From Escherichia phage JH2: a stretch of DNA of 64,000 bases. The translations under genes and the position numbers were made by a program. Numbering within the stretch: the first letter of the stretch is position 1; every line of letters starts with the position of its first letter. The DNA lies in sequence record KF055347; one strand, written 5' to 3'. Positions 325-60,440 of this stretch are shown piece after piece. The notes beneath the pieces were generated by a model, which saw only the letters and a program-made list of their open reading frames with translations, was not told the origin of the DNA and ran no database searches.

Positions 325-888
325 TTATCCTAAAAAGTCCTTTAAATTGCGTTCTGTGAGGTTTTCCGTGATTTTATCCAGTAGGTCACAAAACACGGAA
401 CTATCACCGCTATTCTGTACAATTTTTGCAATACTCAACAAATCATCGTCAACATATCCCAAATTGCGGTTTTTCGTATCAGGTACAAAGAAAGGTGCAT
501 ACATCGCACTAAATTTCGTTGAGTGGATACTAACAATCCAATTTTTATCAAAGTATCCGGTAAAGCTGGCAATTTCGCTCATGTTGTCACAAGAATAATC
601 GTCCTCTAGTTCTTCCTCTGGGATATCCATTTCAATAACAATTACGTCCTGCGTTTCCATTTGGAAAGCTGCTGTGATAAGCCCCGACTCTAAGGCGCTT
701 TGAATGCAGCGTTCACGGATATAAGAGACTTCCTCATCTTCCAGACATTCCGTTTTGATAACCTTATTCATTGGATAAACATAGAAACAATCGTCCATGT
801 AGGAACAGTTCCAGATACCTTCAGGCTTATCGCCACCATTCAGCAGGTTTACAAAGTTTTTGAGTGTAGTTCCGTGATAGCATTTCAT
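325..888 (-). CDS. hypothetical early protein
   Basis: 187-aa ORF; start preceded on the coding strand by conserved CCTTAAACTAGGAGATTCAAAA leader. Confidence 0.5.
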   Translation of the reverse strand: MKCYHGTTLKNFVNLLNGGDKPEGIWNCSYMDDCFYVYPMNKVIKTECLEDEEVSYIRERCIQSALESGLITAAFQMETQDVIVIEMDIPEEELEDDYSCDNMSEIASFTGYFDKNWIVSIHSTKFSAMYAPFFVPDTKNRNLGYVDDDLLSIAKIVQNSGDSSVFCDLLDKITENLTERNLKDFLG

Positions 889-2134: not shown

Positions 2135-2467
2135 TCAAGAGAAATTTTTTCGTTTGCTCAATTCTTGAACAATTACAGCGTAGTAGTCTTTTAAGTCACT
2201 GATATTTAAAGCATTTATCAGTGAATTATAATCATCGACTAACTGAAAATCATCTTTGAAGATATCACTTATCTGATAGGTTTTCGCTTTGAATCTGAAG
2301 CTCATTTCTAGCCGCTTTATTTGCTCATCACTTAAACGCTCCAGAAAGCTCATTACAAGGCTATTATTGACCTGTTGCGTGATTGCCTTACTTGCCAGAT
2401 TGTAGGCGCTGTAAGCCTTATAAAGTGCTATAATGGCGATGATTGCAGTGATGCCCATCATTAGCAT
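2135..2467 (-). CDS. hypothetical membrane-associated early protein
   Basis: 110-aa ORF; N-terminus MLMMGITAIIAIIALY is hydrophobic. Confidence 0.5.
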   Translation of the reverse strand: MLMMGITAIIAIIALYKAYSAYNLASKAITQQVNNSLVMSFLERLSDEQIKRLEMSFRFKAKTYQISDIFKDDFQLVDDYNSLINALNISDLKDYYAVIVQELSKRKNFS

Positions 2468-49880: not shown

Positions 49881-57911
<8,031 letters not shown>

Positions 57912-57912
<1 letters not shown>

Positions 57913-58151
57913 TACATTTTTCCTGCTCTTCTAAGTTCGTTGTAAGCAATTTCCTCTTTATACGACCTCTGAATTTCAAGAAATTGTCTCAATGATAATA
58001 AATCAGAGAATGTCATAGCAAAGAGTTGGTCAAGTGTTTCTTTACACCCTTCCATACCATAAATAGCAAGCACAAATTTCATCTCGTCTGCTTCTTCATA
58101 GGTTGACTCTACAGCAGCATCAGTTAGTGGTGTCTGTAGAGTGTTACCCAT
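57912..58151 (-). CDS. tail assembly chaperone ORF 2 (possible frameshift extension)
   Basis: 79 aa; its frame stays open upstream into the 3-prime end of ORF 58154..58552, offset -1. Confidence 0.45.
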
Positions 58152-58153
58152 GT

Positions 58154-58552
58154 TTACTGAGAAGTTAGGCTTTTGAAAATGCTTGCTTCGAAAAAACTTC
58201 CGAAGTTTGCCTCCAGCGCAAATGCTAAGTAATCAATAAATTCACCATAGTTTGCTTGGAAGTATGTATCAATATTAAGTGGGAAGTCATCAACAGTTGC
58301 CCCTTGAAATAACATGGTAGCCATTTCTTCAAGGTTAATTTCTTCAATTCTGTCAAAACAAGCTTCAACAAGTTCTTTAAATGGAACCATTGGAACATCT
58401 TTCTTACCTTTATCAGTCAGACTTGATAGCATCTGTGCAAAAGTTGGAACAACAATTTTACCCAACTTCATAGACATCTTAATACCATCTCTTGCCCCAA
58501 GCAGAATGATATTTACTTTCTTACCATTAATTACTCTAGATTCTGTTTTCAT
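58154..58552 (-). CDS. tail assembly chaperone
   Basis: 132 aa between tube and tape measure; slippery U_UUU_UUC heptamer near its 3-prime end. Confidence 0.55.
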   Translation of the reverse strand: MKTESRVINGKKVNIILLGARDGIKMSMKLGKIVVPTFAQMLSSLTDKGKKDVPMVPFKELVEACFDRIEEINLEEMATMLFQGATVDDFPLNIDTYFQANYGEFIDYLAFALEANFGSFFEASIFKSLTSQ

Positions 58553-58625
58553 TGTGATTCCTTAATACTTTTAAAAGAAACAAAAAAGGGGAAGACCTTT
58601 TAAAGTCTCCCCCTTATAGGATATA

Positions 58626-59072
58626 TTAAACACTTGACGCTGGAATTGTAGAAGTGTAGTCTAGCTTCTCACAACCAAAAATCCAAGTTTTAGAGTTCTG
58701 GTCACGACCAAGTTCAATCTGTGGTAATTCCTGCAACCAAGCATTAATACCAGTTGCCAGAACAGAGCCTGATGGGTCGTAGATTACGAAGTTAGAAGAG
58801 ATATCTTCTTCAAGTTCCATATTGTCTTGTTTAGCTTGAATTGCAGAAAGCATCTGGTTAGAGAGAGAAGTCTGCATTAGCTCAATCTCAATAGTACCTG
58901 TCTTGTCTGCATTTCTTGTCAGAGCAACTTGACCACCTGCACCTACAACTGGTGTAATAAGTGGTGATGTTCTCTGTAGACGTAAGAATGAGTCTGGGGC
59001 AAAGCCTTCAATAGCAATGCCGTTCCAGCTACATACAACGTCTTTAGGGGAATATTGCTGATACATAGCCAT
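58626..59072 (-). CDS. tail tube protein
   Basis: 148 aa immediately after the sheath gene. Confidence 0.6.
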   Translation of the reverse strand: MAMYQQYSPKDVVCSWNGIAIEGFAPDSFLRLQRTSPLITPVVGAGGQVALTRNADKTGTIEIELMQTSLSNQMLSAIQAKQDNMELEEDISSNFVIYDPSGSVLATGINAWLQELPQIELGRDQNSKTWIFGCEKLDYTSTIPASSV

Positions 59073-59087
59073 TCCAATTTACCTCTA

Positions 59088-60440
59088 TTATTCGTAAGCC
59101 ACTGTACCTTTCAAGTCAACATCCAAGATAGCGCCTGCTAAGATACCTGCAAAGGTAATGTCTTTCAGGATACGAGCTTTCTTGTCTGCCAAAGCAACTT
59201 GAGAGGCTTTAGGAACATTAACTGTGTAAGATGACAGGAAGTTTCTGTTGACTGCTCTTTGTAGAGAGGTTTCAATGACTTGACGAATACGAGTAATACC
59301 AGTATCATCATAAGTAATCTTACCACCCTTCTGGTTAATTAGCAAGTCTCTCAGAGAAGTTTTCAGGTCTGATTCTAACCAGTCAACACCACGGATGATA
59401 TCAATCCATTCCCCACCAGAAGTAATCCCTCTACGAACCACTGGAACACCACCATCAAGGTCAATAAAGTTACAGTGACGTGCATCTAAAGCTGACTTCT
59501 GAATACTTGTCAGAGGTCTCTGATTAGATGGTTGTAGAGAAGCAGCTACACCAGTTAACTGTGCGTTACCCCAAGCAATTGAACCTGCATCATATGGAGC
59601 ACCATAAGCAATGTATGCCATTTCTGGATAATCTTCTGCTGCTGTGTGATGCCATAAGCAAACTGTACGAGTGTACTTATTCTTAGCAAGTTGTGCTGGA
59701 ACATCATTTGCACTGGCTAATTCTGTACCTTGCAGTGCTGCTACATCAGAGTTAGCTGTAAAGAAAATCTTCTTGCGAGCCTGAATCTCAGAAGCCATTG
59801 CTAAGACAAACTGTTGAGTTCTATCTTCTGCTGCAATGAAATACCAGTCGGTAGAATAAGCTTCGATGGCTGCCAGAGCAGTTGATGCTGTATCAGCAGT
59901 TGTGCTTGCAATAAATACAGTCTGTGCTATAGTTGTTACTTTCACGAAATCATTGTCACCAGCTTTGGTAATAATCATTGTGGCAGAACCAGCACTACCA
60001 GTTACGTTCACAGAAACCTTATCTTTGATTGTTGGGTCAGCTTCAATCTGTGTTTTAAACTGTTGCAATACTTTTTCAGCAGTGTCTGAGCTTTTCGCTG
60101 TATACTGATATGGTTGAGAAACTCCACCGCCCACAGCTACAGTTAAAGAATAATCGGTACTTTCAGTAACAGAGTCAGGAATTGATACAGTATACTGCAT
60201 AGCACGTCTACCAATATAAAGCTGAGTTACTTTAGGAGTTTGACTCCAAAGTTGTTTAGCAGCCTTATATGCAGCAGACTTCTCATCGAAATCTTCAGCA
60301 ACTTCAGTTAAGGAAGTGTAACCACGCACTCTTTCTTCAAAGTTATCTGTTGAAGCTAAGAATAGTGGCAAACCAAAACCTTCTCTTGTAGTTCCTGCGG
60401 TGTTCAATGTAATATCTACATTAACAATTGGATTCCACAT
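59088..60440 (-). CDS. tail sheath protein
   Basis: 450 aa immediately before the tube gene. Confidence 0.65.
   Translation of the reverse strand: MWNPIVNVDITLNTAGTTREGFGLPLFLASTDNFEERVRGYTSLTEVAEDFDEKSAAYKAAKQLWSQTPKVTQLYIGRRAMQYTVSIPDSVTESTDYSLTVAVGGGVSQPYQYTAKSSDTAEKVLQQFKTQIEADPTIKDKVSVNVTGSAGSATMIITKAGDNDFVKVTTIAQTVFIASTTADTASTALAAIEAYSTDWYFIAAEDRTQQFVLAMASEIQARKKIFFTANSDVAALQGTELASANDVPAQLAKNKYTRTVCLWHHTAAEDYPEMAYIAYGAPYDAGSIAWGNAQLTGVAASLQPSNQRPLTSIQKSALDARHCNFIDLDGGVPVVRRGITSGGEWIDIIRGVDWLESDLKTSLRDLLINQKGGKITYDDTGITRIRQVIETSLQRAVNRNFLSSYTVNVPKASQVALADKKARILKDITFAGILAGAILDVDLKGTVAYE

What the first reader, a model, noticed from the sequence alone, without database searches (positions are those of the whole stretch)
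57912..58552. Candidate programmed -1 ribosomal frameshift joining the two tail chaperone ORFs
The two small ORFs between tube and tape measure are in the classic chaperone position. Near the end of the first ORF the mRNA reads AGU UUU UUC, a U_UUU_UUC slippery heptamer (plus-strand gaaaaaa at 58190-58196). The -1 frame is open from there through the whole second ORF, so a slip would yield a fusion of about 210 aa (..NFGSFF then RSKHFQKPNFSVNMGNTLQ..).
Basis: partly seen in the sequence, partly recalled or inferred. Interest (0 to 1): 0.6.

Follow-up and report, generated by a model that had tools for sequence, protein, structure and literature searches.

The report
Tail chaperone frameshift site, already known
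The window is a Felix O1-like phage, and the slippery T_TTT_TTC at the end of its first tail-chaperone gene is almost certainly a real programmed -1 frameshift site making a 213-residue fusion protein, but this is a textbook phage feature that databases and papers already record for close relatives.

Summary
On the minus strand, T_TTT_TTC (window 58196..58190) sits in X_XXY_YYZ phase at codons 119-121 of a 132-codon tail assembly chaperone gene. The -1 frame is open from there through the next ORF, giving a 213-aa fusion. Within the window alone this is only moderately unlikely (about 8% for any heptamer in the permissive zone). Comparison settles it.

- All 80 related loci from IMG/VR (20 clusters at 50% identity, down to 23% identity), plus GenBank Ounavirinae and Vequintavirinae, keep T_TTT_TTY in the same phase.
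- The -1 frame is open for 69-123 codons in every one of them.
- Several lineages have no start codon at the head of the second ORF.
- Synonymous-site identity rises from 0.49 to 0.91 exactly at the heptamer.
- No conserved 3' RNA structure was found. A GAGG/GGAGG Shine-Dalgarno-like motif 13 nt upstream is enriched and may stimulate the shift.

The feature is not new. GenBank records of Salmonella phage Mushroom (same genus) and Citrobacter phages Moogle and Michonne annotate the joined CDS. Michonne's slippage coordinate falls inside this heptamer. A 2025 paper reports the conserved GTTTTT site across 231 Andersonviridae. I found no experimental proof. Verdict: interpretation supported, ordinary, already known.

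The parts
59088..60440 (-). Tail sheath gene (450 aa), context
   Evidence: PHROG 205 tail sheath, E 2e-124; Pfam DUF3383
58626..59072 (-). Tail tube gene (148 aa), context
   Evidence: Pfam KPP10_Orf10 and PHROG 280. It sits directly after the sheath gene. In Bas63 the tube is gp14 and the tape measure is gp17, which leaves two genes between them.
58586..58615 (-). Terminator-like hairpin (13-bp stem followed by a T run) between the tube gene and the chaperone gene
   Evidence: A terminator is annotated at the equivalent place in Michonne. The sub-threshold Rfam hits all lie on this hairpin.
58154..58552 (-). ORF1: short tail assembly chaperone (TAC-N, analogous to lambda G), 132 aa, product of standard decoding
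   Evidence: Pfam PF21822 Phage_TAC_15, E 7e-19; phrog_1613, E 2e-48
58210..58214 (-). GGAGG, a Shine-Dalgarno-like motif 13 nt 5' of the heptamer; a candidate 5' stimulator (inferred)
   Evidence: Sequence read. The Glu codon here is GAG in 15 of 18 clusters, against 79 of 199 Glu codons elsewhere in the same genes (Fisher p 7e-4). The review states that such stimulators of -1 shifts act at 9-14 nt.
58190..58196 (-). Slippery heptamer T_TTT_TTC (U_UUU_UUC in the mRNA), spanning codons 119-121 (Ser-Phe-Phe) of ORF1
   Evidence: Conserved as T_TTT_TTY in 80 of 80 IMG/VR loci and in all GenBank relatives examined. Michonne's annotated slippage coordinate falls inside it.
58154..58189 (-). Dual-coding overlap: the last 11 sense codons and the stop of ORF1 in frame 0, and the linker of the fusion (RSKHFQKPNFSV) in frame -1
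   Evidence: The identical-codon fraction at identical residues is 0.91 for codons 118-129, against 0.49 for codons 1-117. Only a 41-nt island (58167-58207) aligns by blastn in the Erwinia phages.
57912..58190 (-). The -1 frame extension of the fusion: 92 codons plus the stop. The first codon is CGA at 58190-58188, which re-reads the C of the heptamer. Full fusion CDS = complement(join(58190..58552, 57912..58190)), 213 aa.
   Evidence: Same length as the joined CDS annotated in Salmonella phage Mushroom.
57912..58151 (-). ORF2 as usually annotated (79 aa from the ATG at 58151); this is the C-terminal domain of the fusion
   Evidence: phrog_4963 tail assembly chaperone, E 6e-55. There is no SD-like sequence before the ATG. 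The first ATG is not positionally conserved among genera.
58106..58142 (-). Hairpin about 48 nt 3' of the heptamer; probably not part of the frameshift signal
   Evidence: It is seen only in Felixounavirus, Suspvirus and Mooglevirus, and it lies too far away for a canonical 5-9 nt spacer.
55669..57912 (-). Tape measure protein gene (747 aa). Its ATG overlaps the stop of the fusion/ORF2 by 1 nt (TAATG).
   Evidence: phrog_4036, E 0; Pfam TMP_3

Best explanation
This is the programmed -1 ribosomal frameshift site of the tail assembly chaperone gene of a Felix O1-like myovirus.

Most ribosomes translate ORF1 to its stop and make the 132-aa short chaperone. A minority slip on U_UUU_UUC. With tRNA-Phe on UUU in the P site and tRNA-Phe on UUC in the A site, both re-pair one base back on UUU UUU. 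Decoding then resumes at CGA. The product is a 213-aa protein with the chaperone domain (residues 1-121), a linker and the helical ORF2 domain.

By analogy with lambda G/GT, both forms would bind the tape measure protein encoded immediately downstream, and the extra domain of the rare long form would recruit the tube protein. Neither form would stay in the virion.

Shown here: the signal, its phase, its deep conservation, and coding constraint on the -1 frame that starts at the heptamer.
Inferred: that the shift is ribosomal, that its efficiency is low, that the upstream GGAGG helps, and the chaperone mechanism itself.
For: Identity of the locus:
- The window is a Felixounavirus, 99% identical to phages REP8 and BPS17W1.
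- ORF1 is a Pfam/PHROG tail assembly chaperone. ORF2 is a PHROG tail assembly chaperone. The flanks are sheath/tube and tape measure genes.

The signal in the window:
- The heptamer is in X_XXY_YYZ phase and the -1 frame is open for 92 codons after it.
- It is the only such case among 56 in-frame heptamers in the window.

Conservation:
- The same heptamer, phase and open -1 frame occur in Mooglevirus, Suspvirus, Kolesnikvirus, Yersinia P778, Hafnia Zyzzx, Pectobacterium Wc4 and the Vequintavirinae CR8 and W70 at about 27% identity.
- 80 of 80 IMG/VR loci in 20 clusters at 50% identity have T_TTT_TTY.
- The preceding codon is AGT, TCT or TGT, so it always ends in T, and the first Phe codon is always TTT. 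Elsewhere in the same genes TTT is 38% of Phe codons and NNT is 34% of Ser/Cys codons, so 0.13 per cluster is expected.
- The -1 frame is open for 69-123 codons, against a median of 13.5 for the +1 frame. It ends within a few bases of the tape measure start in most clusters.
- phiEa21-4 and Wc4 have no annotated ORF2. In Zyzzx, CR8 and W70 the annotated start lies far inside the conserved -1 region.

Coding constraint:
- Synonymous identity is 0.51 just upstream of the heptamer and 0.91 from the heptamer onward.

Independent annotation and literature:
- Joined CDS are annotated in Mushroom, Moogle and Michonne, and Michonne's slippage coordinate lies in this heptamer.
- The published statements agree.
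- In E. coli, UUN codons and all-pyrimidine heptamers are frameshift-prone.
Against: - No experimental evidence for the fusion protein was found for any Felix O1-like phage.
- No significant or conserved RNA structure follows the heptamer at the usual 5-9 nt (z = +0.94 for 50 nt; no consensus structure).
- U6-type heptamers are much less shifty than A_AAA_AAG in E. coli. Motifs without a stimulator gave at most about 10 times a 0.055% background in reporter assays. Efficiency could therefore be very low unless an unrecognised stimulator acts.
- The protein made by transcriptional insertion of one U would be identical, so the sequence alone cannot tell the two mechanisms apart.
- In this genus ORF2 has its own ATG 2 nt after the ORF1 stop, so some independent translation cannot be excluded.
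- The clusters share ancestry, so the 0.13^20 figure overstates independence.
Confidence: 0.85

Rival explanations
1. Transcriptional slippage. RNA polymerase adds one extra U on the T6 run, possibly helped by a nascent hairpin just upstream, as in intrinsic terminators. Standard translation of the U7 mRNA then gives exactly the same 213-aa fusion.
For: - The signal is a homopolymer: T6 in 72 loci and T7 in 8 loci, one of which has a run of 8 T.
- No 3' ribosomal stimulator was found.
- The terminator scan flags a hairpin plus T run exactly here (58216..58200 followed by AAGTTTTTTC).
- Conservation of the T at the third position of the Ser codon would also be expected if run length were under selection.
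Against: - Efficient bacterial RNA polymerase slippage is described for runs of 9 A or T. The RNA:DNA hybrid is 9-10 bp, and T5C5 does not slip without context. T6 is short.
- The upstream hairpin has no covariation support in 41 distinct sequences (shuffles reach the observed values in 375/500 and 496/500; the alternative register is no better).
- Upstream folds are not more stable than shuffles (mean z -0.37).
- Z is C in 72 of 80 loci although TTT would also encode Phe and would lengthen the run.
Confidence: 0.07
2. No recoding. ORF2 is a separate small protein translated only from its own ATG at 58151, for instance by termination-reinitiation after ORF1. The heptamer merely encodes a conserved Ser-Phe-Phe.
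For: - Most GenBank records annotate two separate genes.
- An ATG lies 2 nt after the ORF1 stop in this genus.
- Ser-Phe-Phe is a conserved peptide.
Against: - Codon choice at Ser-Phe-Phe is fixed to T_TTT_TTY in 20 of 20 clusters against 0.13 expected.
- phiEa21-4 and Wc4 have no annotated ORF2. The first ATG differs in position between Felixounavirus, Suspvirus and Mooglevirus.
- The -1 frame stays open between the heptamer and the annotated ORF2 in all loci, over more than 60 codons in CR8.
- Synonymous constraint starts at the heptamer, upstream of the ATG.
- No SD-like sequence precedes the ATG.
Confidence: 0.04
3. Mixed expression in this genus. The frameshift fusion is made, and in addition a free 79-aa ORF2 protein is made from the ATG at 58151, giving three products.
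For: - The ATG is placed 2 nt after the ORF1 stop, which would allow coupling.
- A hairpin starts about 10 nt after that stop in Felixounavirus, Suspvirus and Mooglevirus, with some covariation.
Against: - The ATG is not conserved in position or presence outside the genus.
- There is no SD-like sequence.
- No known role exists for a free C-terminal domain in the lambda paradigm (established knowledge).
Confidence: 0.2

Closest known systems
Phage lambda G/GT tail assembly chaperone frameshift, and the conserved frameshift of dsDNA phage tail genes (Xu, Hendrix and Duda 2004, as cited)
   Same: Two overlapping ORFs lie between the tail tube gene and the tape measure gene. The second ORF is in the -1 frame. 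A slippery heptamer sits near the end of the first ORF. A long fusion is expected at a low level, and neither product is in the virion.
   Different: The heptamer is U_UUU_UUC rather than lambda's G_GGA_AAG (the lambda sequence is from my own knowledge). The host phage is a contractile-tailed myovirus. There is no detectable sequence similarity to lambda G (the Pfam family is Phage_TAC_15). No experiment exists for this group.
Annotated chaperone frameshifts of the Felix O1-like phages Mushroom (Felixounavirus), Moogle, Michonne and Mijalis (Mooglevirus)
   Same: Same genes, same heptamer, same fusion length (213 aa in Mushroom). Michonne's 'ribosomal slippage (47149)' coordinate lies inside the T run.
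   Different: Nothing of substance. Most other records of the genus simply omit the join.
TAC-N/TAC-NC frameshift of Pakpunavirus Adele and Vandenendeviridae, with the same motif reported in 231 Andersonviridae (PMC12846349)
   Same: A conserved GTTTTT motif near the 3' end of TAC-N, and an uninterrupted -1 frame through the 'intergenic' region and the downstream ORF. That paper explicitly extends the motif to the family that contains Felix O1-like phages.
   Different: That work is also purely bioinformatic. This analysis adds the codon-phase argument, the synonymous-site step at the heptamer, the Vequintavirinae and uncultured lineages, the negative result for RNA structure, and the enriched GAGG 13 nt upstream.
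E. coli dnaX -1 frameshift (mechanistic comparison only)
   Same: A homopolymeric heptamer with a Shine-Dalgarno-like sequence upstream, within the 9-14 nt range quoted for -1 stimulation. Here GGAGG lies 13 nt upstream.
   Different: dnaX uses A_AAA_AAG plus a 3' stem-loop and shifts about 50% of ribosomes. No 3' structure was found here, and U6 heptamers are much less shifty.
T4-like phage tail chaperones (Vladimirov et al. 2022, known here only through citations)
   Same: A short and a long chaperone form are needed for a contractile tail.
   Different: According, some T4-like phages encode the short and long forms as separate genes rather than by frameshifting. In this window the two ORFs are in different frames and joined by a slippery site.

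Membership tests
Tail assembly chaperone gene pair with programmed -1 frameshift (lambda G/GT type) | Two small ORFs located between the major tail/tube gene and the tape measure gene | tested here: met
   The order is sheath, tube, ORF1, ORF2, tape measure on the minus strand.
Tail assembly chaperone gene pair with programmed -1 frameshift (lambda G/GT type) | The first ORF encodes a recognised tail assembly chaperone domain | tested here: met
   Pfam PF21822 Phage_TAC_15, 69 bits against a cutoff of 22; phrog_1613, E 2e-48
Tail assembly chaperone gene pair with programmed -1 frameshift (lambda G/GT type) | The second ORF is in the -1 frame relative to the first, and that frame is open across the 3' end of the first | tested here: met
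   The -1 frame is open from 58232 to 57915. The same holds in all relatives.
Tail assembly chaperone gene pair with programmed -1 frameshift (lambda G/GT type) | A canonical X_XXY_YYZ slippery heptamer in zero-frame phase inside the overlap | tested here: met
   T_TTT_TTC at 58196..58190, offset 2 mod 3 from the ORF1 start
Tail assembly chaperone gene pair with programmed -1 frameshift (lambda G/GT type) | Slip site and frame arrangement conserved in diverged relatives beyond what the protein sequence requires | tested here: met
   20 of 20 clusters against 0.13 expected per cluster. Synonymous identity is 0.91 against 0.49.
Tail assembly chaperone gene pair with programmed -1 frameshift (lambda G/GT type) | The fusion protein is actually produced, at a low ratio to the short form, and is required for tail assembly | not testable with these tools
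   No proteomic or genetic data were found for Felix O1-like phages.
Tail assembly chaperone gene pair with programmed -1 frameshift (lambda G/GT type) | The chaperone products are absent from the mature virion | tested here: inconclusive
   In the Bas63 cryo-EM paper the tube is gp14 and the tape measure is gp17. Chaperones are not discussed as virion components, and no mass spectrometry is reported.
Stimulated -1 frameshift cassette with a 3' stem-loop or pseudoknot | A stable, conserved RNA structure starting 5-9 nt after the heptamer | tested here: not met
   For 50 nt downstream the MFE is -3.2 kcal/mol, z +0.94. The alignment fold finds nothing downstream. Rfam gives no match.
dnaX/IS-type frameshift with a 5' Shine-Dalgarno-like stimulator | An SD-like sequence 9-14 nt 5' of the shift site | tested here: met
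   GGAGG at 58214..58210, 13 nt upstream. GAG is preferred at that codon in 15 of 18 clusters against 40% elsewhere. Its function is untested.
Programmed transcriptional slippage | A homopolymer run long enough to fill the RNA:DNA hybrid (about 9), or a shorter run with a conserved upstream nascent-RNA hairpin | tested here: not met
   The run is T6 (T7 in 8 of 80 loci, one with 8 T). The upstream hairpin lacks covariation.

The most novel reading that the evidence does not exclude
The long chaperone form in this very large phage group (Ounavirinae, Vequintavirinae, Pakpunavirus-like and uncultured relatives) may be made at an invariant U6Y site without any 3' RNA structure. Two non-textbook routes remain open. 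One is ribosomal slippage driven only by a conserved internal GAGG/GGAGG 13 nt upstream. The other is RNA polymerase stuttering on the short T run, in part or in whole. Either would be a stimulator-poor or non-ribosomal route to the conserved chaperone ratio, distinct from the textbook heptamer-plus-structure cassette.
Probability: 0.12. Interest if true: 0.35.

Novelty: already known. Interest (0 to 1): 0.15.

Why it matters
In practice it is an annotation matter. Most of the roughly 300 Felix O1-like genomes in GenBank list two separate 'chaperone' or 'hypothetical' genes and miss the 213-aa fusion, which is probably essential for building tails of the correct length. These phages are widely used for Salmonella and E. 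coli typing and biocontrol. Knowing the essential recoding site helps when engineering or refactoring them, because synonymous recoding of Ser-Phe-Phe would probably be lethal. Scientifically it adds nothing new in kind. It is another instance of the conserved tail chaperone frameshift, already predicted for this family.

Tried and rejected
- Downstream stimulatory structure. Single-sequence folds of 50 and 90 nt and an alignment fold of 12 diverged sequences found nothing at the right distance. A hairpin about 48 nt downstream shows partial covariation only in three genera and lies too far away.
- Upstream terminator-like hairpin as a slippage stimulator. It was flagged but has no covariation in either register and no excess stability.
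- Rfam search of the region. Nothing reached threshold, and the weak hits all lie on the tube-gene terminator.
- Solved-structure and NCBIfam searches with the fusion, and a Pfam search with the -1 part. No hits.
- Structure prediction. The single-sequence model of ORF1 was unusable (pLDDT 44.6). The -1 part gave pLDDT 66, with a disordered first 22 residues and confident helices at 45-90. I ran no fold search because the models are too weak.
- The single-frame match in Salmonella phage GE_vB_B3 looked like a natural fusion. The record is marked UNVERIFIED and is full of indels, so I discarded it.
- The Vladimirov et al. 2022 paper on T4-like chaperones is not held and is known here only through citations.
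- I did not run the large protein database searches, because the answer did not depend on them.

Full report
**What the window is.** The region is 99% identical to Felix O1-like myoviruses (Felixounavirus, Ounavirinae) such as Escherichia phage REP8 and Salmonella phage BPS17W1. Homologous DNA occurs in about 293 phage records. The genes lie on the minus strand in this order:
- sheath, 59088-60440 (PHROG 205, DUF3383)
- tube, 58626-59072 (KPP10_Orf10, PHROG 280)
- ORF1, 58154-58552 (132 aa; Pfam Phage_TAC_15, E 7e-19; PHROG tail assembly chaperone)
- ORF2, 57912-58151 (79 aa; phrog_4963 tail assembly chaperone)
- tape measure protein, 55669-57912 (phrog_4036)

**Checking the observation.** The minus strand reads ...GCA AAC TTC GGA AGT TTT TTC GAA GCA AGC ATT TTC AAA AGC CTA ACT TCT CAG TAA AC ATG GGT....
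- The heptamer T_TTT_TTC occupies 58196..58190. Its first T is the third base of a Ser codon, so it is in X_XXY_YYZ phase.
- After a -1 slip the next codon is CGA (58190-58188). The frame then runs through the ORF2 ATG to the ORF2 stop.
- The fusion is 213 aa, with the junction ...NFGSFF|RSKHFQKPNFSVNMGNTLQ....
- The -1 frame is closed 13-14 codons upstream, so only about 26 codons are permissive.

**Is it more than chance?** Within the window the case is only moderate.
- There are 56 in-frame XXXYYYZ heptamers in 17,400 codons. That gives about 8% for any heptamer in the permissive zone and about 1.5% for an A6/T6 type.
- This is the only T_TTT_TTC in the window. It is also the only heptamer followed by a -1 frame open for 50 codons or more (92; next best 38).

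Comparison with relatives is decisive.
- The same heptamer in the same phase, with the -1 frame open into the ORF2 homologue, occurs in Mooglevirus, Suspvirus, Yersinia phage P778, Kolesnikvirus phiEa21-4, Hafnia phage Zyzzx and Pectobacterium phage Wc4. It also occurs in the Vequintavirinae CR8 and W70, which share only about 27% protein identity.
- A scan of IMG/VR with a peptide pattern, which does not constrain codon choice, returned 80 loci in 20 clusters at 50% identity, down to 23% identity to the query.
- All 80 have T_TTT_TTY (72 TTTTTTC, 8 TTTTTTT).
- The preceding codon is AGT, TCT or TGT, never a synonym that ends in another base.
- The -1 frame is open for 69-123 codons in every locus, against a median of 13.5 for the +1 frame.
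- Elsewhere in the same genes TTT is only 38% of Phe codons and NNT only 34% of Ser/Cys codons. The expectation is therefore 0.13 per cluster, against 20 of 20 observed. The clusters are related by descent, so the joint probability is overstated. The switches between the AGT and TCT serine codon boxes that keep the final T still argue for selection on the nucleotides.

**Evidence that the -1 frame is translated from the heptamer.**
- Among seven diverged Ounavirinae, the fraction of identical codons at identical residues is 0.49 over codons 1-117 and 0.51 over codons 106-117. It rises to 0.91 over codons 118-129, which is the heptamer plus the overlap.
- In the Erwinia phages only a 41-nt island (window 58167-58207) is similar enough for blastn to align.
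- phiEa21-4 and Wc4 have no annotated ORF2. In Zyzzx, CR8 and W70 the annotated ORF2 begins far inside the conserved -1 region. The first ATG sits at different places in Felixounavirus, Suspvirus and Mooglevirus.
- In the window no Shine-Dalgarno-like sequence precedes the ATG at 58151.
- In most clusters the -1 ORF ends within a few bases of the tape measure start.

**Stimulators.**
- Nothing stable or conserved follows the heptamer at the usual distance, and Rfam has no match.
- A hairpin about 48 nt downstream (58142..58106) is limited to three genera and lies too far away.
- Upstream, GGAGG lies at 58214..58210, 13 nt before the heptamer.
- The Glu codon that forms it is GAG in 15 of 18 clusters, against 40% of Glu codons elsewhere in the same genes (p 7e-4).
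- The recoding review gives 9-14 nt as the working distance for such stimulators of -1 shifts. This is a plausible but untested 5' stimulator.
- In E. coli reporters, UUN codons and all-pyrimidine heptamers are frameshift-prone, but U6 heptamers are far weaker than A_AAA_AAG. A low efficiency is expected, which fits the lambda paradigm of roughly 30:1 short to long form.

**Rivals.**
- Transcriptional slippage would give the same protein. However, efficient bacterial polymerase slippage is described for runs of 9. The terminator-like hairpin that a scan flags just upstream has no covariation or excess stability across 41 distinct sequences. Most lineages keep C rather than T at the seventh position. 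I give this 0.07.
- Independent translation of ORF2 with no recoding is contradicted by the codon-level conservation, the missing or shifting start codons and the synonymous-site step. I give it 0.04.
- Additional free ORF2 product alongside the frameshift in this genus cannot be excluded.

**Comparison with what is known.** This is the conserved tail assembly chaperone frameshift of dsDNA phages (lambda G/GT; Xu et al. 2004, cited). It is already recorded for this very group.
- GenBank records of Salmonella phage Mushroom (Felixounavirus, 94.6% identical fusion), Citrobacter phage Moogle and Citrobacter phage Michonne carry a two-piece joined CDS.
- Michonne's note 'ribosomal slippage (47149)' falls inside the same T run.
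- The Moogle and Mijalis genome announcements mention the frameshift.
- A 2025 paper on Pakpunavirus Adele reports an invariant GTTTTT site and an open -1 frame in 159 Vandenendeviridae. [quoted passage not shown]
- Most other records, including the window's closest relatives, still list two separate genes.
- No experimental demonstration was found. In the Bas63 cryo-EM paper the tube is gp14 and the tape measure gp17, and chaperones are not discussed as virion components.

**Verdict.** Novelty is 'already known' as a prediction, and interest is low. This analysis adds the following modest points:
- the codon-phase and synonymous-site evidence
- the extension to Vequintavirinae and many uncultured lineages
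- the absence of a 3' structure
- the enriched GAGG 13 nt upstream

Noticed in passing
window 58586-58615 (minus strand): A strong terminator-like hairpin (13-bp stem followed by a T run) lies between the tube gene and the chaperone gene. It could lower chaperone and tape measure expression relative to sheath and tube. A terminator is annotated at the same place in Citrobacter phage Michonne.
   Followed up: partly
window 58106-58142 (minus strand): A hairpin (CTCTACAG...CTGTAGAG) lies at the start of ORF2, about 10 nt after the ORF1 stop and about 48 nt after the heptamer. It shows some compensatory changes among Felixounavirus, Suspvirus and Mooglevirus but is not conserved in deeper branches. 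Its role is unknown.
   Followed up: partly
window 57910-57914: The tape measure ATG overlaps the stop of ORF2 and the fusion by one base (TAATG). The same tight abutment (offset -4 to +6) is seen in most of the 20 diverged clusters. This suggests translational coupling of the tape measure to the -1 frame.
   Followed up: partly
window 325-888 (minus) and 2135-2467 (minus): Two other in-frame slippery heptamers lie close to ORF ends. TTTAAAG is at codon 182 of 187, with the -1 frame open for 38 codons. AAAAAAT is at codon 107 of 110, with the -1 frame open for 23 codons. Both are probably chance.
   Followed up: no
GenBank MG065664.1 (Campylobacter phage A132) and GU169904.1 (Staphylococcus phage SA1): Records labelled as Campylobacter and Staphylococcus phages contain DNA 97.5-98.6% identical to this Felix O1-like locus. 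This looks like mislabelling or contamination of those records.
   Followed up: no
L010 (MG969406.1, Salmonella phage GE_vB_B3): An UNVERIFIED record in which the two chaperone ORFs seem fused in one frame. The locus is riddled with indels (ORF1 breaks after 44 aa), so this is sequencing error and not a natural fusion.
   Followed up: yes
L013 (Cronobacter phage CR8) and L014 (Escherichia phage W70), heptamer at locus position 1248 in both: rV5-like Vequintavirinae have the same T_TTT_TTC at the same place in a chaperone of 156-158 aa. The -1 frame after it is about 120 codons long, and the annotated downstream 'hypothetical protein' covers only its last half. No frameshift is annotated in these two records.
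   Followed up: partly
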